Shown: positions 14,603 through 47,600, counted from the stretch's first letter. The stretch: 64,000 nucleotides of DNA from Bacteroidia bacterium (GCA_016788165.1 JAEUTH010000021.1:153046-217045), one strand, 5' to 3'. Made by a program: numbers and translations. The notes: a model not told the origin generated them from the letters alone.

Positions 14603-14619
14603 AGCAATTGCAATAAATA

Positions 14620-15186: not shown

Positions 15187-15252
15187 GCAAATAAAATTAA
15201 TTAATTACGCATTGTTGTACATTCTAAAACAATGCAATAATTTGTAATTGAA

Positions 15253-19055: not shown

Positions 19056-19057
19056 TT

Positions 19058-20125: not shown

Positions 20126-20171
20126 TATTAAAATTTAAACAGGTTGGAGTTACAAAAGCACCTATTAGGTT

Positions 20172-22610: not shown

Positions 22611-22612
22611 TC

Positions 22613-23380: not shown

Positions 23381-23525
23381 ATAGTTTTACTAATAGAGGG
23401 GGTAAATGTATAAGAATTATATAAATGGTTCAGCAACAGATATAGATACAGATTGTAATAGCTAAAAAAAATATTTACTTTTTGTACTTCAATTTTTTAG
23501 TTGAAAATTAATATTGGTTAAAGCA

Positions 23526-31476: not shown

Positions 31477-32370
31477 TTATTTCTTTTTATCGCTGGCATT
31501 AAACAAAATATCTTTTTCAGTTTGCGATAAACTGCTATATCCCGATTGGCTTATCTTATCTAATATGGCATCAATGGTTTTTTCGTCATAGTGCATATTT
31601 GATTTGGGTTCTTTGCTTTTATGTGCAAGTTTCATTTTGCTTTTTGGTTTTAATCGCCACCTGCTTAATTTATTAAACCATGCACCCACATCGCGCCCTT
31701 GTTGCAATTGTTTGGTATATAAATAGCCAAATAAAGCGCCCCCTAAATGTGCTATTTCGCCACCTGCATTACCGTTGGGAATACTAATTGCTGACAGCAG
31801 AATTACTACCAATGCTACATACTTTAAGCGTACAGGGCCAATTAAAAATAAATACAAAGTATAGTTAGGAATAAGCGTTGCAATAGCAACCAAACATGCG
31901 TTAATACTACCTGATGCTCCTAAAGCATAAGCATGTGGTGTAATTAAAAATTGATTGCGTCCTGATATGGTTCCGGCAAATTGTAGGATGTATAAAGAAA
32001 CCCACATAAATATTATCGCGCATAAGCCTCCTAAAAAATATATAGCCCATAGTTTTTTTTCTCCCATGTACTCTAATATCAATTGGCCTACCCAATACAA
32101 TACAATTAAGTTCCAAAAAATATGACTCAAACTTTCATGTGTAAACATGTAGGTTATTATTGACCAGGGCTGTGTAATTAATACGGGTAAGTACTCGGCA
32201 AAAGAAAGCTTGTGTACAATCACATCCATCCATTGCCCATCAAATAAGCCAAACCACGCTATTAGTTTGCCAAAATTAATAAGTAAAAACACAGCAATGT
32301 TTACCAGTATGAGACGTGTAAGCACATCGCCATTTTGAAATCGGTTTTTTATGTCAACAATCAATTGCAT
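31477..32370 (-). CDS. rhomboid family intramembrane serine protease
   Basis: 297 aa polytopic protein with a GASG catalytic-Ser motif (ALGASGSINA) and a downstream His in TM6. Confidence 0.8.
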   Translation of the reverse strand: MQLIVDIKNRFQNGDVLTRLILVNIAVFLLINFGKLIAWFGLFDGQWMDVIVHKLSFAEYLPVLITQPWSIITYMFTHESLSHIFWNLIVLYWVGQLILEYMGEKKLWAIYFLGGLCAIIFMWVSLYILQFAGTISGRNQFLITPHAYALGASGSINACLVAIATLIPNYTLYLFLIGPVRLKYVALVVILLSAISIPNGNAGGEIAHLGGALFGYLYTKQLQQGRDVGAWFNKLSRWRLKPKSKMKLAHKSKEPKSNMHYDEKTIDAILDKISQSGYSSLSQTEKDILFNASDKKK

Positions 32371-32408
32371 AACTAAGGAAGCTTGTTTTTAAAATGCATT
32401 TGATGCTA

Positions 32409-33248
32409 TTAATAATTAAAGTTGTTATCCTTTTTACGCCACATCATAATCATTATAAAACCAAATATCATCCCACCTAAATGCGCCAAATGTGCAACGT
32501 TATCGCCCGGATTGTTTTGCATACTTGTATATAATTCAAGTAAGCCATACCCAATAACAAAGTACTTAGCTTTAACAGGAATAAGAAAATACAGATAGAT
32601 TAACATGTTAGGAAACATCATTCCGAAGGCTAGTAAAATTCCGTAAACACCACCCGAAGCGCCTACCAGTGGTGTGCTTGCCTGATAGGGAATTAAATTT
32701 TGTGCAAACATAATAGCATTGTCAATTACTTCGGGGTTATGTGGTTGTGTTTCGTATGTTGATGCAAGTTGCGCACCGAAACTTCTGAACTCAGCACCCA
32801 TGCCATCCATGTTTTGTTCGAATAAAACCCTAAAGTCCATTGGGTCAGGGTTATTAATAAATGCAGAAACATGTTTGCTTAAAGCACTTATTTCAAAGTG
32901 TTGCGATATCATTTGTGTAACACCGGCACCAACAACTGTAAAAATAAAGTAGATAAAAAAACGTTTACTGCCCCAATAGTTTTCGAGCATAGCCCCAAAC
33001 ATCCATAAAGCAAACATGTTAAAAAATATATGACCCAAGCCACCATGCAAGAAGCCATAAGTAACAAACTGATGTGGCTGAAAAAGTTCTGAACCATAGT
33101 AGTGCAGTGCAAACAGATTAAACAATTGTTGGTGAAACCCAAAATATTCAGACGCCATTGTGATTAAATACATAATCACATTTAAAACTATAATGCCTTT
33201 GATAACCGGTGGCATTACTGTGTTCGAAGGTTGATAATAATTACTCAT
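32409..33248 (-). CDS. rhomboid family intramembrane serine protease (tandem paralog)
   Basis: 279 aa with GASGGVYG and AHLAHLGG motifs. Confidence 0.8.
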   Translation of the reverse strand: MSNYYQPSNTVMPPVIKGIIVLNVIMYLITMASEYFGFHQQLFNLFALHYYGSELFQPHQFVTYGFLHGGLGHIFFNMFALWMFGAMLENYWGSKRFFIYFIFTVVGAGVTQMISQHFEISALSKHVSAFINNPDPMDFRVLFEQNMDGMGAEFRSFGAQLASTYETQPHNPEVIDNAIMFAQNLIPYQASTPLVGASGGVYGILLAFGMMFPNMLIYLYFLIPVKAKYFVIGYGLLELYTSMQNNPGDNVAHLAHLGGMIFGFIMIMMWRKKDNNFNY

Positions 33249-34278: not shown

Positions 34279-35379
34279 TTATTTAGAGTTTCCGCCTGTA
34301 ATATCTAACCAAACAGCCGTTACTAGAATTAAACCTTTAATTATATCCTGGGTAAAATCTTCAATATTTAATAAGCTCATACCATTATCCAGCGAGGCCA
34401 TTATTAGCGCACCTAAAAGCGCACCGGGTATAGTGCCTTTACCTCCTAACAGGCTTGTGCCGCCTATTACGCAAGCTGCAATGGCATCTAACTCTAAATT
34501 ACGGCCTGCATTGGCAGTTGCATTACCTAATTGTGCCGTGTATAAAATACCGGCTACTGCTGCAAGTATCCCCATTATTATGTAAACAAATAACAAGTTG
34601 GATTTTATATTGATGCCTGAATAGAATGCAGCTTCGGCATTGCCACCGGCAGCATAAACATAGCGCCCAAAGGGTGTTTGCATTGCAATAAATGCAATGG
34701 TTGCTGCAACCATTAACAAAACCAAAACCGGAATGGGCAAACCTTTATATGAGTTTATGTAGGTAAAAAATAAAACGGTTAGCAGGCTTAGGCTTAGCGT
34801 AATCAAACCAGCCGTGGCTATGCTTTTATTGTTTTTACGAAGCGTGAAAAAGTATTTTATAAATGATGCTAATGAAACAGCAATTAAAATATAACTAAGC
34901 CATAAAGGCAGATAACCACTACCGGTGTACTGCATGGCATCGCTTAAAGGTCCTACGGTTTCGCCTTTGGTTAAGCCTTTTACTATACCTCTGTAAATAA
35001 GCATGCCTCCTAATGTTACTATAAAAGCAGGTATTTTTTGATAGGCAATAAGGTAGCCGTTTATAATACCCAAAACTATACCTGTTAAGACGGCCAAAAC
35101 AATTGCAAGTGGTGTTGTTAAACCCCACCATACATTGGCTATTGCAGTAATACCGCCTGTAAGCGCAACCATCGAACCAATGCTTAAATCAATATGACCG
35201 GCTACAATTATGAGCACCATGCCCGAAGCCAAAATGCCTACAATAGCGGTTTGGCGCATAAGGTTTGTAAAGTTGCGGCTATTTAAAAATACTCCGTCAG
35301 TTACAATAGAAAATAATAACCAAATGCCGATTAATGCAAAAAGCATGATGTACGGTCTGATATTAATAGCTTTTATCAT
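34279..35379 (-). CDS. sugar ABC transporter permease (XylH/AraH-type)
   Basis: 366 aa BPD_transp_2-type permease with about 10 TMs. Confidence 0.8.
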   Translation of the reverse strand: MIKAINIRPYIMLFALIGIWLLFSIVTDGVFLNSRNFTNLMRQTAIVGILASGMVLIIVAGHIDLSIGSMVALTGGITAIANVWWGLTTPLAIVLAVLTGIVLGIINGYLIAYQKIPAFIVTLGGMLIYRGIVKGLTKGETVGPLSDAMQYTGSGYLPLWLSYILIAVSLASFIKYFFTLRKNNKSIATAGLITLSLSLLTVLFFTYINSYKGLPIPVLVLLMVAATIAFIAMQTPFGRYVYAAGGNAEAAFYSGINIKSNLLFVYIIMGILAAVAGILYTAQLGNATANAGRNLELDAIAACVIGGTSLLGGKGTIPGALLGALIMASLDNGMSLLNIEDFTQDIIKGLILVTAVWLDITGGNSK

Positions 35380-35397
35380 ATAGAATCAAAATAAAAA

Positions 35398-36903
35398 TCA
35401 ATGTTGTGCTGTGGCGTAATGCATAATACTTTCGGCTGAATAGGGTGTTTCGAAACTTCCGTTTATGGTTCCATTATTCATAACATAAATTGTGTCGCAT
35501 AAGCCCATTAGCTCGGGTAGTTCGGAACTTACCATAAGTATGCCTACACCTGTGGCTGCTAAATTTTGAATGATGGTGTAAATTTCGGCTTTGGCACCAA
35601 TATCAATACCTCTGGTAGGTTCGTCTAAAATCAATAAAGACGGTTTGGTTAATAACCATTTTGCTAAAACTACTTTTTGCTGATTGCCTCCACTTAAGTG
35701 CGCAACCGGTTGCTTCGCATTATGAATTTTAATTTTTAATTGTGCAACACTTTGTGTGGTTGCCTGTTGAATGGCTTTGTTTTGAATTAAAAAGTTTTTA
35801 GAAAAAGTTTTTAATGCAGCTAAAGTTGTATTGGCTGAAATGCTTTGTTGCAATATGAGTCCGAAACGTTTTCTGTCCTCGCTTACCAATGCCAATCCAT
35901 TTTTTATTGCCTGACGCGGATTTTTAGGAAAGTGTTTTAATTCATTCAGCGTTATTTGGCCATCACATTTACCCGCCCATGCACCAAAAATTGTTTCAAC
36001 TAACTCGGTTCGACCTGCACCCATTAAACCGGCAATGCCCACAATTTGATTACTGTGTACGGTTAACGATACATTTTTAATAATCGGTTTATTGGTTTTG
36101 GGATGCCAGGTATGGAGGTTGCTTATCTGTAAAATTTGCTTGCCGGGCTTACGTAATTGTTTATTATACAAATCGGATAGTTGACGCCCAACCATGCTTT
36201 TTATAAGTGCCTCTTCGTCAATACTACTTGCGTTGTATGTACCAACCGATTCGCCATCGCGCAGTACGGTAATGCTTTGGGCAACGTGAAGTACTTCATT
36301 TAGTTTGTGTGATATAATAATAGCCGTAAGGCCTTGCACACGTAATTTTTTTAAAATCTGTAACAGGTTTTCTGATTCGGTTTCGGTAAGGGCTGCAGTG
36401 GGTTCATCTAAAATAAGCAACTTAGCTTTTTTTGATAAGGCTTTAGCAATTTCAACCATTTGTTGTATGCCCACTCCGCAATCCTTTATCTTGGTTTGTA
36501 CATTTAAGCTTACACTTAACGATTGCATTAATGCAGTTGCCGCTGCAATTGTTTTATCCCATTGTATGATTCCTTTGTTGCAAATTTCGCGGCCTAAAAA
36601 AATATTTTCGGCTATGGTCATTTCAGGTACTAAAGCAAGTTCCTGTGCTATGATGGCAATGCCAGCATGCTCTGATTGACTAAGGTTTTTAAATCGAACT
36701 TCTTGTCCGTTCCAAATAATATTGCCGCCATAAGAACCGTACGGATATACACCCGATAAAATTTTCATCAGTGTTGATTTGCCGGCACCGTTTTCGCCAC
36801 AAAGGGCATGTATCTCGGCCGGAGCAACACTAAAGCTGATATTTTTTAATGCCTGAACATTGCCAAAACTTTTGGTAATGTTTTGCATTTGTAATGCATA
36901 CAT
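35398..36903 (-). CDS. sugar ABC transporter ATP-binding protein (duplicated NBD, XylG/MglA-type)
   Basis: 501 aa with two nucleotide-binding domains (GENGAGKST; LSGGNQQK; LILDEPT appears twice). Confidence 0.85.
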   Translation of the reverse strand: MYALQMQNITKSFGNVQALKNISFSVAPAEIHALCGENGAGKSTLMKILSGVYPYGSYGGNIIWNGQEVRFKNLSQSEHAGIAIIAQELALVPEMTIAENIFLGREICNKGIIQWDKTIAAATALMQSLSVSLNVQTKIKDCGVGIQQMVEIAKALSKKAKLLILDEPTAALTETESENLLQILKKLRVQGLTAIIISHKLNEVLHVAQSITVLRDGESVGTYNASSIDEEALIKSMVGRQLSDLYNKQLRKPGKQILQISNLHTWHPKTNKPIIKNVSLTVHSNQIVGIAGLMGAGRTELVETIFGAWAGKCDGQITLNELKHFPKNPRQAIKNGLALVSEDRKRFGLILQQSISANTTLAALKTFSKNFLIQNKAIQQATTQSVAQLKIKIHNAKQPVAHLSGGNQQKVVLAKWLLTKPSLLILDEPTRGIDIGAKAEIYTIIQNLAATGVGILMVSSELPELMGLCDTIYVMNNGTINGSFETPYSAESIMHYATAQH

Positions 36904-36913
36904 AATTGTAGGG

Positions 36914-37918
36914 TTATTGCATTTTTAATTCAGTTGCTTTAATGTAACCATCGGCAATAACCGTTTGCTTCACATTGTTTTTATCTACTGCTACCGGTGC
37001 AAGTAGTAGTGCACTAACTTCTTTTTTACCATTGTTAATGGTGCGTGTTGTGGCTGCTGTTGGTTTATTTTCGGCTAAAGCTATTGCTGCTTCGGCACCG
37101 GCATAGGCTAATTGTTTTATAGGTTTGTAAACCGTCATACTTTGAACACCATCAATAACTCTTTGTACGGCAGCAAGCTCGGCATCTTGTCCGCTAACGG
37201 GAATTTTTCCGGCCAATTGTTGTTCTGTTAATGCTTGTATGCAGCCTCCGGCTAACCCATCGTTGGCAACTAAAATGGCAGCAATGTTATTGTTGTTTTT
37301 GGTCAATGCATTTTGGGTTTGTTTATAAGCTTCAATAGGCAACCAATCTTTGCAATATTGCTCCATCACAATGGTTATGTGTCCACTATCAATTAAAGGT
37401 TTAAGTATTTGCATGTGGCCTTTATTATATAAAAAAGCATTTTCATCAGTTGCCGAACCTTCTACCAACATATAATTGCCTTTAGGGGCTAAGCCAACCA
37501 AAGTTTGTGCTTGTAAAACACCCACTTGTTCATTGTCGAATGAAACGTATAAATCCAAATCACAATCTTTAATCATCCTATCGTATGCAATTACTTTTAT
37601 ACCTGCTTCTTTTGCGCTGTTTACAGCTTTTGCAGCGGTTTTACTATTGTGCGGCACTATTACTAAAACATCAACTCCTTGTGTAATTAAATTTTCAACT
37701 TGTTCGTTTTGTAATTGTTCATTACCGTTACAAACTTGCCTTATTACGGTAGCACCTAACTGAGCGGCACGCTCTTCAAAAAACTGCCCGTCTTTTTTCC
37801 AACGTTCTTCGGTGTAGGTATCCATAGCTAAACCTATGGTAAGTTTTTTGGTTTTTGAACTATTACAATTGTATGTAACTATAAGTAGGAGGGCATAAAA
37901 AAGCCATTTGTTTTTCAT
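36914..37918 (-). CDS. periplasmic monosaccharide-binding protein (XylF/ChvE family)
   Basis: 334 aa with a signal peptide and a Peripla_BP_4-like two-lobe sequence. Confidence 0.75.
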   Translation of the reverse strand: MKNKWLFYALLLIVTYNCNSSKTKKLTIGLAMDTYTEERWKKDGQFFEERAAQLGATVIRQVCNGNEQLQNEQVENLITQGVDVLVIVPHNSKTAAKAVNSAKEAGIKVIAYDRMIKDCDLDLYVSFDNEQVGVLQAQTLVGLAPKGNYMLVEGSATDENAFLYNKGHMQILKPLIDSGHITIVMEQYCKDWLPIEAYKQTQNALTKNNNNIAAILVANDGLAGGCIQALTEQQLAGKIPVSGQDAELAAVQRVIDGVQSMTVYKPIKQLAYAGAEAAIALAENKPTAATTRTINNGKKEVSALLLAPVAVDKNNVKQTVIADGYIKATELKMQ

Positions 37919-37943
37919 ATATAATATTGCAGTTTTATATAAA

Positions 37944-39500
37944 TTAAGGCCAAGCTATCATGCTTGCATAGGGGGCTAAAGTAAAAGTATTGTGGTTTGA
38001 TTTCGAACTAAAATTTGAACTAAAAATTACATTATTAAAATGCTGTGGCAGGCTGCTTTTTTCGATGGTAATGTTTTTGCTCGAAAGATTGTGCATTATA
38101 AGTAGTGGGTTATTTTCGAAACTGCGTATATAAATTAATATAGATTGGTTTTGTGTTTGTACCGGAATTATGTTGCCAAATGCCAAGGCAGCATTATGAT
38201 TTCTTAAGTTGATTAGTGCTTTGTAATGTTGTAAAGTGCTGTTTATTGTTTGTTGTTGAATACTAACCGGTGCTACCTGTAATGGTTTATTATATTTATG
38301 TTTTAGCCACTTACATTGATTGCTATCTTTTTCATGACTCCATAACATAGGTTCGCGCAAATATTCATCTGGCTTTTTACCTAACATACCCAACTCTTCG
38401 CCATAGTAAATAAACGGACTACCGGGTAGCGTTAACAGGATGGAAGCAGCTAGCTTAATTTTTTTTGCATCGCCATTTAATGTACTTGCAATACGGTTTT
38501 GGTCGTGATTTGAAAGAAAGGTAGCTTCAATAAAATTAGGGTTCGCTTTTTCGTACACATCTATCATTTGCTTTACTTTAAAAGGCAAATGCATGTTTCT
38601 TTCATTAATTAATACATCAATAATATGTTGTGCTAAATCGAAATTAAAAACGGCATCAATTCCATTTGCTAAGTAGGGCGCAGCATACATGTGTGCTTCG
38701 GTAACTTCGGCTAAAAGAAATACATCGGGTTTAACGGTTCTTAATGCATTACTATACTCATGCCACCATTGTAATGTTTTATTTGTATCGGTTTTTGGAT
38801 AAATCCACATTGCAGCATCTAATCTAAAACCATCTAAGGCAGTATGCGTAAGCCAGTATTTTCCAACATCAATCATGGCTTGCCTTACTTGTTGGTTGTC
38901 GTAATTAAAATCGGGCATACCATCCCAAAAAAATGCATAGTATGCTGCTGTACCATCATCAAATTTATGAGGCTTAAAGGGCTTAACGCCTCTTAGTTTT
39001 GGTATGTACCAATGATTGATTTCTGTTTCAATATTTTCGACAGCCGACCACACAAAGAAATCGCGATATGGGCTGGTTAAGCTATCGCGCGCACTTAAAA
39101 AATACGGATGCTTATCGCTGCAATGATTTATAACCATATCCATAATTACTGCTATACCACGGTTATGTGCTTGTTCGATTAAGTTATTTAAATCGGCTAA
39201 GGTGCCGTATTGCGAGTCAATACGATAGTAGTCAATTACATCGTATTTGTGATAGGAGTATGATGCTAAAATGGGTGTAAGCCAAATACCGCGTATGCCT
39301 AAATCTTTTATGTAATCAAGTTTTTGTGCGATACCGTTTAAATCGCCAATGCCATCATTATTGCTATCGGCAAAACTGTGTACAAAAATCTGATAGTAAA
39401 CCACATTTGGAAACTGATTTGTTTCGGGCGCTTGGTTATTGTGTTGTGCACCTGTTTTATTAATCATGAGCAGAAGAATGAAAAGAAATTTTTTCATCAA
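37944..39500 (-). CDS. secreted GH13 alpha-amylase-family glycoside hydrolase (alpha-glucosidase/oligo-1,6-glucosidase-like)
   Basis: 518 aa with a signal peptide and GH13 conserved regions (GIWLTPI, GFRLDAA, EVT..., FLSNHD). Confidence 0.85.
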   Translation of the reverse strand: MMKKFLFILLLMINKTGAQHNNQAPETNQFPNVVYYQIFVHSFADSNNDGIGDLNGIAQKLDYIKDLGIRGIWLTPILASYSYHKYDVIDYYRIDSQYGTLADLNNLIEQAHNRGIAVIMDMVINHCSDKHPYFLSARDSLTSPYRDFFVWSAVENIETEINHWYIPKLRGVKPFKPHKFDDGTAAYYAFFWDGMPDFNYDNQQVRQAMIDVGKYWLTHTALDGFRLDAAMWIYPKTDTNKTLQWWHEYSNALRTVKPDVFLLAEVTEAHMYAAPYLANGIDAVFNFDLAQHIIDVLINERNMHLPFKVKQMIDVYEKANPNFIEATFLSNHDQNRIASTLNGDAKKIKLAASILLTLPGSPFIYYGEELGMLGKKPDEYLREPMLWSHEKDSNQCKWLKHKYNKPLQVAPVSIQQQTINSTLQHYKALINLRNHNAALAFGNIIPVQTQNQSILIYIRSFENNPLLIMHNLSSKNITIEKSSLPQHFNNVIFSSNFSSKSNHNTFTLAPYASMIAWP

Positions 39501-39682
39501 ATTTTATAGAATGATTTCAAAAAACTTTGCTTGCAAATAAACAATGCTACTTGGTATTTGTTATCAAAAAATATTTTTGTTTCAGCACAAACTTTTAAAA
39601 TATGCACCAACATATAAGTGAAAAAAAGAAAAGGGCGGTTAACTATGTAACTGCCCTTTAATTAAAAATGAAAAAGGATTAT

Positions 39683-41263
39683 TTAATAACCGGGATTTTG
39701 AACCAGGTTTTTGTTCACTGCTAAATCGGCTGCAGGTATGGGATATAAATTTAAATGACCGGATGTAGCATTACCGGCAACACTACCTCCTTTGTATGGC
39801 CATAAATAATTGCCACCGGTAAATAAGCCGTAACGAATTAAATCGGTTCTGCGGGTACATTCCCAATATAATTCGCGTGCGCGTTCTTTTAGTAAAAATG
39901 GTAAATCAACGGTAGTAACCTGGCCAGATGTATTACCAAAGGCACGATCGCGTAGCGCATTAATGTAAGCAGTAGCTTGTGCCATATTGCCGCCTCCGCC
40001 TCTAACAGTAGCTTCGGCATACATGAGGTAAACATCTGCTAATCTGAACAATGGGAAATCGGTATCCACAAAATTACCGGCAGGGTCGCTGCCTTTTATG
40101 CCATTACGATCAACGTTACGCCATTTATTAACAGCATAACCATCTTCAAAAGTTTTTAGTTCGGCTATGTCATAATTTTGACCATCAATATGGAACATAT
40201 ACCTTTTGTCAACTGCCGAGTCGTTATCAAACGAGCTTACCAAACCTTTGGTGGTACGTAAACCAAACCATCCACCGTTAACACCAAAATCATCATCGTT
40301 CATAGTGCCGCCAATTGCTGCATGAATAATAAAGGTTGTACCACCATAAGTTTGTGTGCGTAAACCATCGGATGTGATAGGAAATATTACTTCTGTTGAT
40401 TTGTGATTATCGGCCAAAAACAACCAATTATAATTAGCATCCAATGTATAGCCTCCTGCAATTACTTTATTACAATAAGTAATACAATCATTATATCGTG
40501 CTGTACCAGTATATACTTCGGCATTAAGGTATAAACGTGCAAGTAATGAAGCGGCAGCAGCTTGGTCGGCACGGCCATATTCATTTTGGCGCGGTGCAAT
40601 CATCAGCCCTTCTATGGCTTTTAATTCCGATTCTACATAATTGAAAAGTTCTGTTCGGCTTGCTTCGCGTGGGTCGTAAGAGCCAACGCCATCGCTTTCA
40701 GTAACAAATGGGCCTTTACCATATAAATCAAGCTGATAGTAATAGGCAAGGGCACGTATAAAGCGGGCTTCGTTTCTAAACTGCTTAATTTCGTTAACCT
40801 GCGAGTCGGTAAACCCACGTCCATTTAACTTGCCATCTTCTGTTTCGCGTATAAATTCATTACACATGGCAATTTCGAAATAAATGCGTTGGTACATACT
40901 GGTAACAAAACTGTTATCATTACTCCAGGTTTGTTGATTTAAATCAGGAATACCAGGGTCAGTCCAGCCGCATACTGCTTCATCGGTAGGTAATTCTTGT
41001 AAATTCCATAAGGCACGGATAAAACTCGAAAAACCTTCATCACCTGTTCCAAAATCGGGCGAACCTGCCGGGCCTCTGTTACCGGTAAGTATCAGTCCAC
41101 CATATATTTTTGCCAAAACGCTTCGGTAGTTTTCGGCTTTGCTATAAACCGATTCGGCATTTAAACCGTATTTAGGGGTCATGTCCAAATCCTTGTAACA
41201 TGATGTAAACATCAATGTTAAACAGGCTATGGCTATTGCTTTAGATTTGAAATTCGTATTCAT
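39683..41263 (-). CDS. SusD/RagB family nutrient-binding outer-membrane lipoprotein
   Basis: 526 aa with a lipoprotein signal (FTSCYKD). SusD-like TPR-rich fold; directly downstream of SusC. Confidence 0.8.
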   Translation of the reverse strand: MNTNFKSKAIAIACLTLMFTSCYKDLDMTPKYGLNAESVYSKAENYRSVLAKIYGGLILTGNRGPAGSPDFGTGDEGFSSFIRALWNLQELPTDEAVCGWTDPGIPDLNQQTWSNDNSFVTSMYQRIYFEIAMCNEFIRETEDGKLNGRGFTDSQVNEIKQFRNEARFIRALAYYYQLDLYGKGPFVTESDGVGSYDPREASRTELFNYVESELKAIEGLMIAPRQNEYGRADQAAAASLLARLYLNAEVYTGTARYNDCITYCNKVIAGGYTLDANYNWLFLADNHKSTEVIFPITSDGLRTQTYGGTTFIIHAAIGGTMNDDDFGVNGGWFGLRTTKGLVSSFDNDSAVDKRYMFHIDGQNYDIAELKTFEDGYAVNKWRNVDRNGIKGSDPAGNFVDTDFPLFRLADVYLMYAEATVRGGGGNMAQATAYINALRDRAFGNTSGQVTTVDLPFLLKERARELYWECTRRTDLIRYGLFTGGNYLWPYKGGSVAGNATSGHLNLYPIPAADLAVNKNLVQNPGY

Positions 41264-41274
41264 TTTTATAGCTA

Positions 41275-44235
41275 TTAAAATTGAAAGTTTAAATTGATTG
41301 AGTAAATACGTGGGCGTGGGTATATGTTTTGATCAATACCGCCACCAACTTCTGGGTCGAGGCCGGCATAATCAGAAATGATAAATACATTTTGAACATT
41401 AAACGAAGCAACCATATTGTATTTATCTTTAATTAAGTTTTTAAAGTTGTAGGCTAAACTTACATAGTCCAGTTTAATAAAATCGGCTGAGCGTAAGTAG
41501 TAATCAGAAAAATATTGCTCTTTTTTAAATCCGGTATTTAAGTAATCGGTTGATAGATTGCTAAGTGCTTTAACCGAGCCACCCATGCCTGCCAAATTTC
41601 CTCTGATAGAAGCAACGTTGTAATAAATATAGTGACCAAACTCGCCACGTAAACTTGCGCCCAACGACCAGTTTTTGTAGGTAACATTGGTATTTAAACC
41701 AACTAAATATTTGGCATCGGGGCGGTGCTTACGCACCAAATCATTTTCATTAATTTTTCCATCGTTGTTTTGGTCAATGTATTGACCTTCTTTAGGCTTT
41801 CCGTTTGCATCGTAAATTTGCTCATAAACATAAAATGTATTGGGTGCGTAGCCTACCGTATGTACTTGAATGGTATTGTTTATACCGCCTTGTATGCCGC
41901 CCACTTTAATGCCAACTTCGCTTTCGGAACTTGCTCCGGTAATCTTAGTTATTTTACCATTGTTGGTGCTAAAGTTTGTTCCAATTTCCCATGTAATTTT
42001 ATCTGTGGCAACCGGTATAAAGTTAAGGGTAACTTCTAAACCTTCATTCTCCAAACTACCTACATTGGTAAGTACACTGTTACCAAAATTGGTACCTGCA
42101 GCAGGTGCAGCATTCACAATTAAATCTTTGGTTTCTTTTCTATAAACATCAACAGCACCGTTTATCCGACCATTAAAAAAGCCGAAATCTATACCTGCAT
42201 TGGTAGTAGTAGTTTCTTCCCACTTTATAAATTTATCATAAGCATCGGGTCGTAACACATAGTAATACTGGCTACCAAACTGGTATTGAGCCGTATTGTT
42301 TCCTTGGCTGTAGTTTGCTATGTATGGGTAGTCGTTATTGATGTCTTGCTGTCCGGTAACACCATACCCTAAACGAAGTTTTAAGATTGATAACCAGCTA
42401 ACATCTTGCAAAAATGTTTCATCGCTTATACGCCATGCAAATGCGGCCGATGGAAATAAGCCATGGCGCAAATCTTTATCAAAGCGTGATGATGCATCAT
42501 CACGTAAAGTAGCCGTAAACAAAAATCGTTTAAACAATGTGTAATTAATCCTGCCATAAACAGAGATTAATGCATTTTCGGTAAATGATGGCACCGGTAT
42601 GCCGGGTAACGTATCGCCTGCAGCATTGCGGCTGTAAAATGCCGGACTTTCAGAACTCCAATATTGATAGGAGTATCCTGCTGTTAAATCCAATCGGTTA
42701 TTGGGATTAAACTCTTTATTGTAATTCAAATAGAAGTCAAACAGTTTATTGTCTTTGCTTTGCTCATATTGTGTTTGGCTACCCTTAGTTGTATAGGCCG
42801 ATGCGGCCGCGGCCGATGTAAAGGTACTACCGTGACTGCGGCTAATATCACCACCCACATTAACATGAGCGCGTAAGCCTGGTAAAAATTTGAATTTGTA
42901 GTCAAGCCCGGCATTACCAATAAAACGATTTACAAATCCTTTATCATCACGTAAGTTTAATAGCCCCATTGGGTTTCGGGCTGCTACAACAATGGGTTTT
43001 TTAGAATTATCCAACCATTCAAAATAGCCGCCATAAGCAGTTGTATCACTGTAAATATTTTGAGTAGGATCAAAACCTACTGCCGATCCAATTGCGCCTT
43101 GGTCGGGAAAGAAATTATAAGTGGTACTGTATTTTGCATTCACTTCTAATGTTAAACTATTATCGAAAAATGAAGGGTTTAAATTTATGCCCACCGATTT
43201 ACGATCCATTTGCGAGTACTGCAGGGTGCCGGCATTGCTTAATAAGCCAAACGATAAGCGATATGGTAATCCTTTTATGCCTCCGGTAAAACTGATATTA
43301 TTATCGCTGGTTAGCGCGTTACGGTAAATTTCGCTTTGCCAGTTGGTTACCGATTTGCCTAAAAGCCCTTTTTGCGTATTGGTACCATTTGCCATCACCA
43401 CATTTCTAAACTCATCAGCACTAAGCACATCGGTATAATCGGCAACGGTTGAAATGGCAAAATTGGTGTTAAAGTCAACATGGAACGATGAAGCGGAACC
43501 TTTTTTAGTAGTTATGATAATCACACCATTAGCTGCTCTTGCCCCATAAATAGCCGCAGCTGACGCGTCTTTTAACACAGTCATATTTTCAATGTCGTTA
43601 GGGTTAATTAAACTTAAACCATTAGGCGCACCACTAATGCCATTGTTATCCAATGGTACACCATCAACAACAATTAAAGGATCATTGCTTGCATTTAATG
43701 ATGTACCACCTCGAATACGAATGCGGCTTCCCGAACCAGGAGCACCACCATTGGTAGTAATTTTTACACCGGCAGTTTTACCTTGTATTAATTGCTCAGG
43801 TGTGGCAATAATACCTTTATTAAACTCTTTAGCATTTACACTGGCTACTGAACCTGTTAAATCTTTTTTCTCAGTTGTTCCATATCCAATTGCTACTGCC
43901 TGGTTCAGGAGTATAACATCTTCCTTTAAAGTGAAATTAAGTTTGGTTTGTTTACCTTCACTAATACTTACCTGTTGGGTAACTGATGTATAGCCAATAA
44001 AACTGGCAACAACGTTGTATGTGCCCGGCTTTACTTGTTTAATTAAATAGTTGCCATCCATATCTGCCACACTGCCTTGCGTAGTGCTGCTAATCGAAAT
44101 TGAAACAAATGGAATGGGTTGATTGGAGGCATCAGTTACAGTACCGCCAATACTGCCGGATTGGCCATAGCTTAGTGTAAATGATACACCAAGTAAAATA
44201 AGCCATAAAAATTGGCGTAAGTAGTTTTTTTGCAT
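41275..44235 (-). CDS. SusC/RagA family TonB-dependent outer-membrane transporter
   Basis: Carboxypeptidase-regulatory-like N-terminal domain, TonB box/plug, a 22-strand barrel, and a C-terminal aromatic (NLNFQF). Preferred start is ATG 44233-44235 (MQKNYLRQ...) rather than the TTG at 44295. Confidence 0.85.
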   Translation of the reverse strand: MQKNYLRQFLWLILLGVSFTLSYGQSGSIGGTVTDASNQPIPFVSISISSTTQGSVADMDGNYLIKQVKPGTYNVVASFIGYTSVTQQVSISEGKQTKLNFTLKEDVILLNQAVAIGYGTTEKKDLTGSVASVNAKEFNKGIIATPEQLIQGKTAGVKITTNGGAPGSGSRIRIRGGTSLNASNDPLIVVDGVPLDNNGISGAPNGLSLINPNDIENMTVLKDASAAAIYGARAANGVIIITTKKGSASSFHVDFNTNFAISTVADYTDVLSADEFRNVVMANGTNTQKGLLGKSVTNWQSEIYRNALTSDNNISFTGGIKGLPYRLSFGLLSNAGTLQYSQMDRKSVGINLNPSFFDNSLTLEVNAKYSTTYNFFPDQGAIGSAVGFDPTQNIYSDTTAYGGYFEWLDNSKKPIVVAARNPMGLLNLRDDKGFVNRFIGNAGLDYKFKFLPGLRAHVNVGGDISRSHGSTFTSAAAASAYTTKGSQTQYEQSKDNKLFDFYLNYNKEFNPNNRLDLTAGYSYQYWSSESPAFYSRNAAGDTLPGIPVPSFTENALISVYGRINYTLFKRFLFTATLRDDASSRFDKDLRHGLFPSAAFAWRISDETFLQDVSWLSILKLRLGYGVTGQQDINNDYPYIANYSQGNNTAQYQFGSQYYYVLRPDAYDKFIKWEETTTTNAGIDFGFFNGRINGAVDVYRKETKDLIVNAAPAAGTNFGNSVLTNVGSLENEGLEVTLNFIPVATDKITWEIGTNFSTNNGKITKITGASSESEVGIKVGGIQGGINNTIQVHTVGYAPNTFYVYEQIYDANGKPKEGQYIDQNNDGKINENDLVRKHRPDAKYLVGLNTNVTYKNWSLGASLRGEFGHYIYYNVASIRGNLAGMGGSVKALSNLSTDYLNTGFKKEQYFSDYYLRSADFIKLDYVSLAYNFKNLIKDKYNMVASFNVQNVFIISDYAGLDPEVGGGIDQNIYPRPRIYSINLNFQF

Positions 44236-44290
44236 AATACTTCGTTTGGTTTTAATTAAAATTTTAAACGTATTAGGGGGATTCGAACCT

Positions 44291-44313
44291 GACAATAAAA
44301 AAAGTATTATTGT
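44291..44313. promoter_or_regulatory. perfect 8-bp inverted repeat gacaataa-N7-ttattgtc upstream of susC
   Basis: Seen directly in the sequence, about 56 nt upstream of the susC ATG. Candidate operator or 5' hairpin. Confidence 0.25.
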
Positions 44314-44644
44314 CTATGGCAAAGTAATTGATTGGCTTTTAAAAAAACAATAACTATTGATAATGTTTTATAAATTAAATGGCTCTGCATTATACTAACG
44401 AGATATTTTGATACCAGAAAGCAACCTTGAAATTTTTGCTGCATTTCAATTGTTTACAAATAAGTTGGTCTGTTAAAAACCGCTTACAATATCATTACAT
44501 GAATTATATTTAAAAATATATTTTTGGCGGCCTCATTTTAAAATTTCTGAAGCCTATAAAGTATTAACGCCTTTCTAACAAAAGTCATTTAGTATTTTAT
44601 TGTTTTAACCACTATTAATTAACTAAGAAATTAAATATCAATAT

Positions 44645-47600
44645 ATGAAAAAAGGTTATACGAATTTGTTTACGGTTCTGTTTATGTTTTTGTGTTTGGT
44701 AACGCAAGCGCAATTAAAAGATGCACATACTAAAATTAACGCAACTGATGCACAACAAGAAGTTGCCGACATTAATGCAGCACTTAAAAATGGATCAAAT
44801 GCTTTAATGGCTTTAGATAGCATACCTCAGTGTAGTGCTGTTTGGACTTATGGTGGTGGTACAGGTGTTGTCCCCGATAACAACAGCAACGGCTTAACCA
44901 TGAATTTTAATATTAATGATATAGCCGGAACTAACTTAGGTACGGATGTTAATTTAGTTGGCGTATCAATTACCTTACAACATTTTAGAATTGGCGATAT
45001 AAGTATCGAGTTAATTGCTCCAAATGGTGTTAAAATTCCTTTGGTTGATCGTATGGGGTATCCGGCAACTTTACCTTATGGCTGTACCGGTAAAAATATT
45101 AATGCCACATTTTTAAGAGGTACCGGTGCCGAGGCCGAAAACGTTTGTGCTACACCACCCCCGGCTTTGAAAGGTGTTTACTCAGCCGATTTTGGTTTTA
45201 ATTTAGACAGTATAAACTTAGCCGGTGGTTCACCTAATGGCCAGTGGAAATTAAAAGTATATGATGCACAGGCAGGTGAAATTGGTTATGTTTTGAATTG
45301 GAAAATGTATTTCGACCAACAACCACCCAATGCCGTATTTACAACCAATGCTATTGGCTTATTTGTAAGCCTTAATGCACAAAACACATTAAATGGAAAT
45401 GCAACCTATATATGGGAGTTTGGTGATGGCGATAGTGCGGTTGGCCAATCTGTTACACATCAATATCCGGTCCGTGGCCAGTACACCATTAAACTATTGG
45501 TAATTGATGCTTGTGGAATTGATTCGGCCAAAGCTACCTACAGCTTAGAACCTCCACCATGTTTTGCCGAATTTCCTTCAACAACAACACCTACACCTAT
45601 TACCGATAATAACCCTGCCGGTGATACTTTAGTTATTAATACCAACCAGGTAATTGGTTCAAAATTGGGCAAAGATGTGCAACTTCGTAAAGTTTGTATT
45701 CAGGGTACACATCCAAGGGTTGGCGATTTAAAAATGAAATTGATTTCGCCCGGAGGTGTCGAAATTTTATTTATTGACCGAACTTATTATCCATTTCAGC
45801 AGCCTTACGGTTGTTTAAATTCTGATTTTAACTACTGCATTATTCATGGCGATTCATTAGATGGAGAATTTAAATGTGATGCAACCGGTGCCGCAATTAA
45901 AGGCGAATTTACAGCCATGACGCCTCAGGATTTGCGTCAGGTAAACGATTTAGTTACCAACCCAAATGGTGCTTGGAAATTAGTAGTTTATGATATGGCA
46001 GCCGGGCAAACCGGTGTTGTAACTAATTGGAGCCTTTTGTTTGACCAACAAGACCCTGATGCAGATTATACTTATACATTTAGTGGCTTAACGGTTGATA
46101 TTACTTCTAAAAATTTGCCTGCCGTTAACTACCGTTGGGATTTTGGAGATGGTACACCAATTGACACCAACAAAAGCCCTTCGCATACATATGCTACACC
46201 CGGCACTAAAACAATAACCGTATATACTGATAATGTTTGTAGCCGCGATACTTTGGTACGTAACATAACCCTTTATGCTTGCGAAGAACAATTTGTATAT
46301 CCATCGGTACCGGTTGCCATTCCAGATATTGATTCAACCGGAATACTTATACCTTTTAATATTACAGGTGTTGATGGCGTTAATCTGGGAGTTGATGCAT
46401 TTATAACCCGTGTTTGTATTACCAGCGACCATATATGGCCGGGCGATTTAAAAATACAACTAATAGCTCCTAATGGTAAAGTAGTGCCTATTATTAATCA
46501 ACCTACGCGCGCATTAACTTTAGCAGGTTGCGGTGCACCGGGAATTGATATGTGTATTGTGCAGGGAAGCGGAAACGATACACGCTTCGTTTGCGACTAC
46601 GTAAATGCACCTCCGGCAATAAAAGGGTTTTATACTGCCAATGCCGGCTACCCTCTCGAATCAATAAATTTGGCAGGAGGTAACCCCAATGGCACCTGGT
46701 ACTTAAATGTATTTGATTATGCATTATTTAAAACGGGAAATATTACCAGTTGGAGTTTATATTTTGGTAAACTAAAGCCAAACGTAGATTTTACATATAC
46801 AGCGAACGATTCAGGGCTTGCATCATTCACTATACCAAATGCATCAACCAATTATTTATGGGTTTTTGATAATGGTGATACAAGTACCAGCCTAACACCT
46901 ACACATCAATATCCAGCTAATGGCATATATCAGGTAAAATTAATTGCAATCGATTCGCTTTGTTTAAGCGATTCGATTGTTAAGGATGTTTACATCACCT
47001 CTTTTAACAGAGGTTGTGTTTCACCATTTGTATATCAGGGTACAGCAGTTCCAATTGCCGATGCCGATTCGGTAAACGGATCCGTTTTAAACTTTAATGT
47101 AAGTGGTGTTTTAGGAGATACCTTAGGCACCAACGTAAACCTTTATCGCGTTGCCGTTAAAGGTAAACATGGCAGGGTAGGCGATTTAAAATTCAAACTA
47201 ATTGCACCCAATGGCTTAAGCACAATTTTAGTTGATAGGCCCGGTTACCCAACAACAAACGAAGGTTGCTTACAACGTGATTTTCAATTTATTTTAAGTA
47301 ATGGGCAAGGAGCCAACTTAGAAACTATGTGTAATGAAACCGGATTGGCATTGTTTGGTAATGTGTTATCAGATAAAGCTAACGATTTAGGTACTATCAA
47401 TTTTGGTGGTGGAAACCCAAATGGCATTTGGCAATTAGTTGTTTATGATTATAAAACCGATTGGATAGGTCAAATTGATGGATTGTCTCTTTACTTCGAT
47501 GGGCAGCCTACACATGCCGACTTTATTTACAACATTAAAAAAGATACCGTTGTTTTCAGACATGCAGCGCCATTAAATGCAACAACCAAATGGAGTTTTG

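What the first reader, a model, noticed from the sequence alone, without database searches (positions are those of the whole stretch)
34279..44295. Hybrid locus: SusC/SusD/GH13 co-oriented with a periplasmic-binding-protein ABC monosaccharide importer
Seen in sequence: six co-directional genes with short gaps of 10-180 nt: SusC, SusD, a secreted GH13, a XylF-like SBP, a dual-NBD ATPase and a permease. Established knowledge: Bacteroidota PULs normally pair SusCD with MFS or other secondary inner-membrane transporters, and high-affinity SBP-dependent ABC sugar uptake is more typical of Proteobacteria and Firmicutes. Inference: this is an alpha-glucan (starch or isomaltooligosaccharide) scavenging system with an ATP-driven high-affinity glucose or oligosaccharide step. 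That could be an adaptation to oligotrophy or a horizontally acquired cassette fused to a PUL. No HTCS, SusR or ECF/anti-sigma regulator is present in the operon.
Basis: partly seen in the sequence, partly recalled or inferred. Interest (0 to 1): 0.5.

Follow-up and report, generated by a model that had tools for sequence, protein, structure and literature searches.

The report
Starch-uptake locus with ABC sugar importer
An uncultured Bacteroidia bacterium pairs an ordinary starch-capturing outer-membrane system with an ATP-driven sugar importer derived from a xylose transporter, where its relatives use a simpler proton-coupled carrier; no such importer has been studied in this phylum.

Summary
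The six genes are real, intact and at the stated coordinates: SusC, SusD, a periplasmic GH13 alpha-amylase, a lipoprotein XylF-like binding protein, a double-domain ATPase and a permease.

The order is not chance. It recurs in three other Bacteroidia lineages (L001, L005, L010) with different flanks, and in a partial form in L047. The deeper conserved unit is GH13 plus the ABC genes. That four-gene cassette occurs without SusCD in three further genomes.

SusC, SusD and GH13 are orthologues of the canonical alpha-glucan locus of Rufibacter, which carries LacI, MFS and GH65 genes instead of the ABC genes.

The binding protein keeps all eight xylose-contacting residues of E. coli XylF. It belongs to a separate clade (L12Y, K13T, Trp165 lost). 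That clade sits beside GH13 genes and never beside xylAB, whereas a canonical Bacteroidota XylF does sit beside xylAB.

My best reading is periplasmic starch breakdown followed by ABC uptake of glucose. The ligand is inferred from context, not shown.

A structurally conserved terminator hairpin after susD, plus a conserved promoter-like box before GH13, suggest two transcription units rather than one operon.

Base composition gives no sign of recent horizontal transfer. I rate this a new variant of a known kind, of moderate interest.

The parts
44316..44354 (-). Promoter-like island upstream of susC: GTTATTGTTTTTTTAAAAGCCAATCAATTACTTTGCCAT. It contains a TTG, then a spacer, then TTACTTTG, which resembles the Bacteroidota -33/-7 elements.
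   Evidence: 37 of 39 positions are identical between the window and L001, inside an intergenic region that is otherwise diverged. Similar TTnnTTTGC boxes lie upstream of susC in L005 and L010. Function is inferred, not shown.
41275..44235 (-). SusC-like TonB-dependent outer-membrane transporter, 986 aa counted from the ATG at 44235.
   Evidence: TIGR04056 688 bits (cut-off 368), with CarbopepD_reg_2, Plug and beta-barrel domains. It is 45% identical to the SusC of the Rufibacter alpha-glucan locus and 53-89% identical to the SusC proteins of L001, L005, L010 and L047.
39683..41263 (-). SusD-like surface glycan-binding lipoprotein (526 aa). The N-terminus reads ...TSC-YKDLD, which looks like a surface export signal.
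   Evidence: SusD_RagB and SusD-like_3 domains. The best NCBIfam model is the starch-binding SusD model, 432 bits, below its strict cut-off of 725. PDB matches: 3JYS at 1e-109 and B. thetaiotaomicron SusD 3CK7 at 3e-88.
39621..39659 (-). Intrinsic-terminator-like element just downstream of susD: AAAGGGCAGTTA...TAACCGCCCTTTTCTTTTTTT.
   Evidence: Folding energy -12.6 kcal/mol, z-score -4.73, and 0 of 200 shuffles fold as well. L001, L005, L010 and L047 have hairpins in the same place (-18.5 to -27.8 kcal/mol) with unrelated sequences; four are followed by a T-run, which is weak in L005.
39533..39543 (-). Promoter-like box TGTTTATTTGC, 36 nt upstream of the GH13 start codon.
   Evidence: This is an 11/11 identical island between the window and L001, within a poorly conserved spacer. 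It resembles the box upstream of susC. Function is inferred.
37944..39497 (-). Periplasmic GH13 alpha-amylase (517 aa). It has a type I signal peptide (MKKFLFILLLMINKTGA/QH), no lipobox and no CBM58 insertion.
   Evidence: PF00128 at 2e-95 plus SusG_C. Best solved relatives are H. orenii AmyA 1WZA (1.5e-109) and SusG (2e-74). The GFRLDA, EV and NHD catalytic motifs are present in the alignment.
36914..37918 (-). XylF-like CUT2 substrate-binding protein (334 aa), probably lipid-anchored through Cys18 and facing the periplasm (the sequence after the Cys is CNSSKTKK, with no acidic export signal).
   Evidence: Peripla_BP_4 at 3e-58. TIGR02634 (xylF) scores 376, below the cut-off of 389.55. About 51-53% identical to E. 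coli XBP. AlphaFold model pLDDT 89, TM-score 0.87-0.94 to 3M9W. All 8 xylose hydrogen-bond residues are conserved. The protein belongs to a distinct clade carrying Y12, T13 and no Trp165.
35398..36903 (-). Fused double-domain ABC ATPase (501 aa).
   Evidence: Two ABC_tran domains. The Walker A, Walker B and LSGGNQQK motifs are readable in the translation. XylG model PRK13549 scores 652 (below 699) and the GguA model scores 643 (below 810).
34279..35379 (-). CUT2 ABC permease (366 aa), encoded by a single gene.
   Evidence: BPD_transp_2 at 1e-38. The GguB model scores 334, below its cut-off of 450. It is 55-83% identical to the permeases of the related loci.

Best explanation
This is an alpha-glucan (starch, glycogen or maltodextrin) utilisation locus of an uncultured Bacteroidia bacterium, built from two modules.

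Module 1 is susC-susD. It captures alpha-glucan chains at the cell surface and moves them into the periplasm.

Module 2 is GH13, binding protein, ATPase and permease. A soluble periplasmic alpha-amylase cuts the imported chains. A membrane-tethered binding protein descended from the XylF xylose-binding family then hands the end-product, most likely D-glucose, to a CUT2-type ABC importer that uses ATP to bring it into the cytoplasm. D-glucose has the same ring hydroxyl geometry as D-xylose plus a C6 hydroxymethyl group.

The ABC module takes the place of the MFS permease, cytoplasmic GH13/GH65 enzymes and LacI repressor found in canonical alpha-glucan loci of relatives.

The two modules are probably transcribed from separate promoters, with a terminator or attenuator hairpin after susD.

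Shown here: gene content, orthology, conserved linkage, clade structure and conserved hairpins. Inferred: the ligand (glucose), the location of the proteins, the promoters and the extent of read-through.
For: Gene content and integrity.

Conserved arrangement:
- The same six-gene order occurs in L001, L005 and L010, with SusC 53-89% and binding protein 61-81% identical and with different flanking genes.
- L047 keeps SusCD, the binding protein and the ATPase.
- The GH13-binding protein-ATPase-permease cassette occurs without SusCD in L048, L049 and L102, each in an unrelated context.
- L011 and L015 have the ABC genes 1-4 kb from a 944-aa secreted GH13. L011 also has PFK and a BadF-type ATPase-family protein (a family that includes sugar kinases) nearby.
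- L005 and L047 have a GH31 next to susC.
- L010 has a protein with weak, sub-threshold matches to starch-binding modules (CBM20/48/53) nearby.

Orthology to a canonical locus: Rufibacter has LacI | SusC SusD SusE GH13 GH13 ... MFS GH13 GH65 HAD.

Alpha-glucan assignment: SusD matches B. thetaiotaomicron SusD at 3e-88. The GH13 matches AmyA and SusG and has its catalytic motifs.

Binding protein:
- All 8 xylose hydrogen-bonding residues of E. coli XylF are conserved (residue list from PMC8753852).
- The model has the XylF fold.
- All GH13-linked binding proteins form one clade in a neighbour-joining tree, marked by L12Y, K13T and loss of Trp165.
- A canonical-type XylF in a Bacteroidetes genome sits beside xylB and xylA. 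No clade member does.

Transcription signals: a hairpin after susD in five of five SusCD-linked loci, and conserved promoter-like islands.
Against: - No ligand has been measured. The first-shell residues are identical to those of a xylose binder. Strictly clade-specific substitutions are not enriched near the pocket (2 of 7, p = 0.47).
- An alpha-amylase alone yields mainly maltose and maltotriose, and the 64-kb window encodes no alpha-glucosidase. Glucose production therefore depends on an enzyme not seen here, or on an unusual product profile of this GH13.
- ABC-linked GH13 proteins are not clearly monophyletic in a neighbour-joining tree.
- The promoter and terminator assignments rest on sequence alone. 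Read-through from susCD is not excluded.
- No regulator has been identified.
- L047 lacks GH13 and the permease, so the linkage can decay.
Confidence: 0.6

Rival explanations
1. The ABC genes are an ordinary XylFGH D-xylose importer. They merely lie beside an alpha-glucan locus, and the two systems handle unrelated sugars.
For: The binding protein is about 51-53% identical to E. coli XylF and keeps all eight xylose hydrogen-bonding residues plus Trp17 and Trp169. Its TIGR02634 score of 376 is only just below the cut-off of 389.55. Databases annotate relatives as D-xylose binding proteins.
Against: The GH13 and binding-protein genes are 6-44 nt apart and co-oriented in five genomes with unrelated flanks, with no hairpin in the window's 25-nt gap. 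Every full transporter locus of the clade examined has a GH13 or GH31 nearby. No xylA or xylB is found in the window or in any clade locus, whereas the canonical-type Bacteroidota XylF in L097 abuts xylB and xylA. The clade is separate from canonical XylF in the tree.
Confidence: 0.12
2. The transporter is a broad-specificity monosaccharide importer in the manner of ChvE-GguAB, taking glucose, xylose, galactose and others. It was recruited next to GH13 as a general scavenger.
For: The GguA and GguB models are among the best matches for the ATPase (643 bits) and the permease (334 bits). ChvE 3URM is a structural neighbour. Canonical XylF-type transporters elsewhere sit in beta-glucan contexts (GH3 plus PF10091, L012) and mannose contexts (GH47, PMI, L098), which suggests that specificity in the family is flexible.
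Against: All the Ggu and ChvE model scores fall far below their cut-offs (226 vs 460; 643 vs 810; 334 vs 450). The consistent pairing with alpha-glucan enzymes argues for a dedicated role.
Confidence: 0.15
3. The binding protein has been remodelled to take maltose or short malto-oligosaccharides, the direct products of the amylase, so that no periplasmic alpha-glucosidase is needed.
For: The locus and window encode no alpha-glucosidase. The bulky Trp165 is replaced by Phe, Tyr, Pro or Asn throughout the clade, and positions 12 and 13 differ, which could enlarge the pocket.
Against: CUT2 transporters are described as monosaccharide-specific (PMC13543919). All eight residues that bind the xylose hydroxyls are retained, which by inference leaves little room for a glycosidic extension. 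No cytoplasmic maltose-processing enzyme (GH65, GH13, 4-alpha-glucanotransferase) accompanies the cassette in any locus, while L011 has a BadF-type ATPase-family protein (a family that includes sugar kinases) and PFK nearby.
Confidence: 0.1

Closest known systems
Canonical alpha-glucan polysaccharide utilisation locus of Cytophagales and Flavobacteriia, for example Rufibacter radiotolerans CP010777 (locus L099)
   Same: Orthologous SusC (45% identical), SusD (53%) and the same periplasmic GH13 type (43%), in the same order downstream of susCD.
   Different: Rufibacter has a divergent LacI regulator, SusE, a secreted CBM20-GH13, an MFS permease, a cytoplasmic GH13, a GH65 maltose phosphorylase and a HAD phosphatase/mutase. 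The window has none of these and carries a binding-protein-dependent CUT2 ABC importer instead.
Bacteroides thetaiotaomicron starch utilisation system (SusRABCDEFG)
   Same: A SusC/SusD pair with a SusD clearly related to the starch-binding prototype (3CK7, E 3e-88). The GH13 is a relative of SusG. The logic is also the same: outer-membrane import followed by periplasmic hydrolysis.
   Different: There is no SusR, SusE/F, SusA or SusB. The GH13 lacks the lipobox and the CBM58 insertion of SusG, so it is periplasmic rather than surface-bound. The Sus locus encodes no inner-membrane transporter, whereas this locus encodes an ABC importer.
Escherichia coli XylFGH D-xylose ABC transporter
   Same: The same three-gene order and architecture: Peripla_BP_4 binding protein, fused double ATPase, single permease. 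The binding protein is about 51-53% identical, has the same fold (TM-score 0.87-0.94) and keeps all 8 xylose-contacting residues.
   Different: Scores fall below the equivalog cut-offs. The binding protein is a lipoprotein. Clade-specific changes are L12Y, K13T and loss of Trp165. The genes are linked to GH13 and not to xylAB. The predicted ligand is glucose.
Gram-positive polysaccharide utilisation loci (Roseburia, Eubacterium rectale, Bifidobacterium) with lipid-anchored binding proteins and ABC importers
   Same: A glycoside hydrolase gene is coupled to an ABC importer that has a lipid-anchored binding protein (PMC5320581, PMC8990778).
   Different: Those are CUT1 oligosaccharide importers in bacteria with a single membrane, and they have no SusCD. 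Here a CUT2 monosaccharide-type importer sits behind a SusCD outer-membrane step.
Agrobacterium ChvE-GguAB multiple-monosaccharide transporter
   Same: The same CUT2 subfamily. GguA and GguB are among the best model matches for the ATPase and permease. ChvE is a structural neighbour.
   Different: All scores are far below the cut-offs. The binding protein is only about 36% identical to ChvE. There is no link to virulence sensing.

Membership tests
Polysaccharide utilisation locus (PULDB definition) | Adjacent susC-like and susD-like genes | tested here: met
   TIGR04056 688 bits for SusC and SusD_RagB 7e-32 for SusD, with an 11-nt gap between them.
Polysaccharide utilisation locus (PULDB definition) | A carbohydrate-active enzyme gene next to the susCD pair | tested here: met
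   The GH13 gene lies 185 nt downstream of susD on the same strand.
Sus-type starch system (B. thetaiotaomicron) | SusD of the starch-binding type | tested here: inconclusive
   Clear homology (3CK7 at 3e-88). The strict NCBIfam SusD model scores 432, below its cut-off of 725. The starch-contact residues were not checked one by one.
Sus-type starch system (B. thetaiotaomicron) | Surface lipoprotein amylase (SusG, with CBM58) and SusE/F binding proteins | tested here: not met
   The GH13 has a type I signal peptide and no Cys. It aligns to SusG only on either side of the CBM58 insertion. There is no SusE/F ORF in the locus.
Sus-type starch system (B. thetaiotaomicron) | SusR-type regulator in the locus | tested here: not met
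   No regulator domain was found among the ORFs scanned across the 64-kb window.
Canonical Cytophagales/Flavobacteriia alpha-glucan locus | Orthologous SusC, SusD and periplasmic GH13 | tested here: met
   45, 53 and 43% identity to the Rufibacter locus L099.
Canonical Cytophagales/Flavobacteriia alpha-glucan locus | MFS permease, GH65 maltose phosphorylase and LacI repressor | tested here: not met
   None in the window. All are present in L099.
XylFGH D-xylose ABC transporter (NCBIfam equivalogs) | Binding protein and ATPase reach the curated equivalog scores | tested here: not met
   Binding protein: 376 vs 389.55 (TIGR02634) and 387 vs 504 (NF007680). ATPase: 652 vs 699 (PRK13549) and 580 vs 723.65 (TIGR02633).
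XylFGH D-xylose ABC transporter (NCBIfam equivalogs) | The xylose hydrogen-bonding residues R16, D90, R91, D135, N137, N196, D222 and K242 | tested here: met
   All eight are conserved, as R39, D113, R114, D158, N160, N219, D245 and K265 (residue list from PMC8753852).
XylFGH D-xylose ABC transporter (NCBIfam equivalogs) | Genomic association with the xylose catabolic genes xylA and xylB | tested here: not met
   Absent from the window and from all clade loci examined. Present beside the canonical-type XylF of L097.
XylFGH D-xylose ABC transporter (NCBIfam equivalogs) | High-affinity, specific D-xylose binding | not testable with these tools
   This needs ITC or thermal shift on purified protein.
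CUT2 family ABC importer (TC 3.A.1.2) | Peripla_BP_4 binding protein, fused double-domain ATPase and BPD_transp_2 permease | tested here: met
   The motifs are intact in the translations.
GH13 alpha-amylase of the AmyA/SusG type (GH13_36 from memory) | Catalytic Asp/Glu/Asp in the conserved GH13 regions, and closest solved relatives AmyA and SusG | tested here: met
   The GFRLDA, EV and NHD motifs align with 1WZA (1.5e-109). SusG matches at 2e-74. The CAZy subfamily number was not computed.
ChvE-GguAB multiple monosaccharide transporter | Reaches the NCBIfam equivalog cut-offs | tested here: not met
   226 vs 460 (ChvE), 643 vs 810 (GguA) and 334 vs 450 (GguB).

The most novel reading that the evidence does not exclude
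A lineage of uncultured Bacteroidia turned a XylF-type xylose-binding protein into a lipid-anchored glucose receptor and wired its ABC importer to a periplasmic amylase and, in some members, to SusCD. The usual route is MFS uptake followed by cytoplasmic phosphorolysis. In this lineage it would be replaced by complete periplasmic saccharification and ATP-driven high-affinity glucose capture. If so, this would be the first polysaccharide utilisation locus in the phylum whose inner-membrane step is a binding-protein-dependent ABC transporter. It would also be a natural example of a xylose-to-glucose specificity switch with an unchanged hydrogen-bond shell.
Probability: 0.45. Interest if true: 0.6.

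Novelty: new variant of a known kind. Interest (0 to 1): 0.5.

Why it matters
Two recent papers state that no Bacteroidota ABC transporter has been shown to carry carbohydrate, and that such transporters are scarce in the phylum (PMC8990778, PMC13543919). This locus offers a defined, conserved and testable case.

It would show that the inner-membrane step of a polysaccharide utilisation locus can be exchanged. A low-cost secondary carrier with cytoplasmic phosphorolysis would be swapped for an ATP-driven high-affinity importer fed by periplasmic hydrolysis. That affects how substrate affinity and energy budgets of these bacteria are modelled.

There is also a practical annotation point. Binding proteins of this clade are labelled 'D-xylose' in databases, yet they sit in starch contexts. 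Metabolic reconstructions of these genomes may therefore wrongly predict xylose use.

Finally, the clade is a natural experiment in how a pentose-binding pocket might accept a hexose.

Tried and rejected
- Recent horizontal transfer. GC and GC3 of the six genes (0.36-0.41 and 0.28-0.34) equal those of the rest of the window (means 0.366 and 0.318), so there is no compositional signal.
- Pocket-focused specificity shift. Strictly clade-specific positions (7 in total) are not enriched within 4 residues of first-shell positions (2 of 7, p = 0.47). The sequence argument for a ligand change is therefore weak, and the case rests on genomic context.
- Atomic inspection of the pocket. The AlphaFold model was good (pLDDT 89), but its coordinates were not among the files available to scripts. 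The papers describing the XylF and ChvE structures were not held.
- GH13 phylogeny as a test of co-inheritance with the ABC genes. The neighbour-joining tree has long branches and does not resolve ABC-linked GH13 proteins as one clade, so it is inconclusive.
- Taxonomic placement below class. The 120 best Ffh relatives (78% identity or more) are unnamed or labelled only 'Bacteroidia', 'Bacteroidetes' or 'Bacteroidota bacterium'. The test 'norm across the order' could be addressed only through the sampled loci.
- Known RNA elements in the intergenic regions. There was no Rfam match at E <= 0.1.
- Sigma-70 promoter scan. It found fewer hits than in shuffled sequence (38 vs 46.6), which is uninformative for Bacteroidota.
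- A regulator in the window. None was found.
- A literature precedent for a SusCD locus with a sugar ABC importer. None was found. The Rhodothermus cluster in PMC6987092 has a cobalamin-type binding protein, not a sugar one.
- The metagenome scan added few close relatives.
Full report
**Observation**

The window carries six intact minus-strand genes at 34279-44295. Pfam and NCBIfam identify them as follows:
- a SusC/RagA TonB-dependent transporter (TIGR04056, 688 bits);
- a SusD lipoprotein;
- a GH13 alpha-amylase (PF00128 at 2e-95, plus SusG_C);
- a Peripla_BP_4 binding protein whose best models are the XylF equivalogs (376 and 387 bits, both below cut-off);
- a fused double-domain ABC ATPase;
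- a BPD_transp_2 permease.

The gaps are 11, 185, 25, 10 and 18 nt. The likely SusC start is the ATG at 44235, which precedes a signal peptide.

Three localisation points come from reading the N-termini:
- The GH13 N-terminus (MKKFLFILLLMINKTGA/QH) is a type I signal peptide without a Cys. With no T9SS C-terminal domain, the enzyme should be periplasmic.
- The binding protein has a Cys18 that is invariant in 17 relatives. It is followed by basic rather than acidic residues. I read this as a lipoprotein that stays on the periplasmic side. This is an inference from what I know of lipoprotein export signals in this phylum.
- SusD has the acidic CYKDLD context typical of surface lipoproteins.

None of the 50 ORFs scanned across the 64 kb is a transcription factor, another glycoside hydrolase or a sugar kinase; these are all ORFs of 145 aa or more except three, two of which overlap larger genes on the opposite strand.

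**Is the arrangement more than chance?**

Yes. I searched with the binding protein and fetched contigs and genome loci.

The full order SusC-SusD-GH13-binding protein-ATPase-permease recurs in three other lineages:
- L001: binding protein 81% identical, flanks syntenic with the window.
- L005 (= L007): 74% identical, different flanks, a GH31 divergent from susC, and an IS200-like gene inserted between GH13 and the binding-protein gene.
- L010: 61% identical, different flanks. A neighbouring protein there has only weak, sub-threshold matches to starch-binding modules (CBM20/48/53).

L047 (= L008, 73%) keeps SusCD, the binding protein and the ATPase next to a GH31, but lacks GH13 and the permease.

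The four-gene unit GH13-binding protein-ATPase-permease also occurs with no SusCD within about 8-10 kb upstream or downstream. This holds in three unrelated contexts: L048, L049 and L102.

L011 and L015/L051 carry the three ABC genes 1-4 kb from a 944-aa GH13 that has a T9SS sorting domain. In L011 they also lie next to phosphofructokinase and a BadF-type ATPase-family protein, a family that includes sugar kinases.

So the deepest conserved linkage is amylase plus ABC importer. SusCD is attached in about half of the sampled loci.

**What the outer-membrane and enzyme parts are**

SusD matches the prototype starch-binding SusD of B. thetaiotaomicron (3CK7, E 3e-88).

The GH13 is closest to Halothermothrix AmyA (1WZA, 1.5e-109). 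It also matches SusG on either side of the CBM58 insertion. The GFRLDA, EV and NHD catalytic motifs are in place.

A search from the GH13 side led to Rufibacter radiotolerans, a cultured member of the Cytophagales. There the orthologous GH13 (43% identical) lies in a textbook alpha-glucan locus:

LacI | SusC (45%) - SusD (53%) - SusE - secreted CBM20-GH13 - GH13, then MFS, GH13, GH65, HAD and cyclomaltodextrinase.

This is the norm against which the window should be read. The window has the same SusCD and periplasmic amylase. The MFS permease, the cytoplasmic maltose-processing enzymes and the LacI repressor are missing, and an ABC importer is present.

**What the ABC part is**

The binding protein is about 51-53% identical to E. 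coli XylF. An AlphaFold model (pLDDT 89) superposes on 3M9W and 3MA0 with TM-scores of 0.87-0.94.

The eight residues that hydrogen-bond xylose in E. coli XylF are R16, D90, R91, D135, N137, N196, D222 and K242 (listed in PMC8753852, citing the structure paper). All are conserved, as are Trp17 and Trp169.

Even so, the GH13-linked proteins form a single clade in a neighbour-joining tree of 127 family members. The clade is marked by L12Y/F, K/R13T and replacement of Trp165 by Phe, Tyr, Pro or Asn. About 28 protein clusters at 90% identity among the 120 best hits carry this signature.

A canonical-type XylF from a Bacteroidetes genome (L097) lies directly beside xylB and xylA. No member of the GH13-linked clade does.

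Other canonical-type members sit beside GH3 plus PF10091 (L012, Acidobacteriota) or beside GH47, MFS, PMI and GPI genes (L098, Ignavibacteria). The family's genomic contexts are therefore not limited to xylose.

D-glucopyranose differs from D-xylopyranose only by the C5 hydroxymethyl group. A conserved hydrogen-bond shell is therefore what a glucose binder derived from XylF would be expected to keep. This is inference.

The sequence case for a remodelled pocket is weak. Only 2 of 7 strictly clade-specific positions lie within four residues of first-shell positions (p = 0.47). The glucose assignment therefore rests mainly on genomic context.

**Transcription units**

Immediately after susD the window has AAAGGGCAGTTA...TAACCGCCC followed by TTTTCTTTTTTT. 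It folds at -12.6 kcal/mol with a z-score of -4.73.

L001, L005, L010 and L047 each have a hairpin at the same place (-18.5 to -27.8 kcal/mol). Their sequences are unrelated, so it is the structure that is conserved. Four are followed by a T-run; the run is weak in L005.

Downstream, an 11/11 identical island (TGTTTATTTGC) lies 36 nt before the GH13 start. It is shared by the window and L001 in an otherwise diverged spacer. It resembles the box in a 37-of-39 identical island upstream of susC (TTG ... TTACTTTG) and the Bacteroidota -7 consensus TAnnTTTG. That consensus is from my own knowledge.

The 25-nt gap between GH13 and the binding-protein gene has no hairpin.

I conclude that susCD and GH13-ABC are probably separate but adjacent transcription units with possible read-through. 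This fits the fact that the GH13-ABC cassette exists on its own elsewhere.

However, that promoter sits before GH13, so the ABC genes remain tied to an alpha-glucan enzyme and not to an unrelated sugar.

**Origin**

GC and GC3 of the six genes match the rest of the window. The cassette is spread over several Bacteroidia lineages. There is no evidence for recent transfer, and the deeper origin of the clade within the XylF family is unresolved.

The host is an uncultured Bacteroidia lineage with no named relatives among the 120 best Ffh hits. The NCBI protein accessions of the source genome include MBL7926608.1 and MBL7926619.1.

Two related genomes carry names that point to wastewater treatment or a membrane bioreactor. 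That does not fit an oligotrophy argument, although I did not check sample metadata.

**Mechanism proposed**

1. SusCD imports alpha-glucan chains.
2. The periplasmic amylase cuts them, helped by an alpha-glucosidase encoded elsewhere. GH31 genes lie next to susC in L005 and L047.
3. The tethered binding protein captures glucose.
4. The ABC importer brings it in at the cost of ATP.

The gap in this model is that no alpha-glucosidase is present in the window.

**Rivals**

- True xylose import with incidental adjacency (0.12).
- A broad monosaccharide importer (0.15).
- A maltose or malto-oligosaccharide binder (0.10).

**Comparison and novelty**

The parts are all members of known families. The combination is what is unusual: SusCD and a periplasmic GH13, followed by a lipoprotein-dependent CUT2 ABC importer in place of MFS, GH65 and LacI.

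I found no description of such a locus in the literature searched. Reviews state that no Bacteroidota ABC sugar transporter has been characterised (PMC13543919, PMC8990778) and that marine Bacteroidetes ABC systems largely lack binding proteins (PMC4069401).

I rate it a new variant of a known kind, with interest 0.5.

Noticed in passing
window 44645-53104 (+): A 2819-aa protein made of PKD and P_proprotein repeats is transcribed divergently from susC. The same neighbour occurs in L001, and a PKD giant lies next to the GH31 in L047. This may be a conserved surface protein associated with the locus, or simply shared synteny.
   Followed up: no
window 58849-59439 (-): A small ORF with NUMOD4 and HNH_3 domains, resembling a homing endonuclease, sits directly downstream of the ffh (SRP54) gene.
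   Followed up: no
window 13508-24710: A surface-polysaccharide biosynthesis and export cluster. It includes GT4, a dTDP-sugar epimerase, FdtA, a hexapeptide acyltransferase, GT2, Acyl_transf_3, a Wzz/tyrosine-kinase, Poly_export and GT1. A XerC/D-type recombinase lies at 11984-12883.
   Followed up: no
L005 8801-9979: A DUF2281 gene, an IS200-like Y1 transposase and a small ORF are inserted between the GH13 and binding-protein genes. In that genome the ABC genes must rely on read-through or on a promoter of their own.
   Followed up: partly
L047 9698-14199: This copy of the locus has SusCD, the binding protein and the ATPase, but no GH13 and no permease. A 505-aa protein of unknown family lies on the opposite strand where the permease would be. 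It could be a decaying locus or an assembly problem.
   Followed up: partly
L053 10001-13496 and L101 9304-12729: A sub-branch of the clade (motif TYTQQQ / SYLEQQ) consists of orphan binding proteins with no ATPase or permease. They are followed by a 282-285-aa protein of unknown family and by MORN-repeat proteins. L053 also changes first-shell-adjacent residues (N196S). These proteins may have a role other than transport.
   Followed up: partly
L012 144-6561; L098 599-11786: Canonical-type XylF-family ABC transporters in other phyla lie next to GH3 plus PF10091 'glycoamylase' genes (Acidobacteriota), or next to GH47, MFS, mannose-6-phosphate isomerase, GPI and a BadF-type ATPase-family protein (Ignavibacteria). 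The blanket 'D-xylose' annotation of this family is therefore probably too narrow.
   Followed up: partly
window 44375-44389 (-): A second conserved island lies upstream of susC: GTTAGTATAATGCAG in the window and GTTTGTATAATGTAG in L001, about 50 nt upstream of the promoter-like box. It could be an operator for the unidentified regulator.
   Followed up: no
window 31477-33248 (-): Two tandem rhomboid-family protease genes lie just beyond the convergent lipid A acyltransferase gene that abuts the permease stop codon with no gap. The arrangement is syntenic in L001.
   Followed up: no
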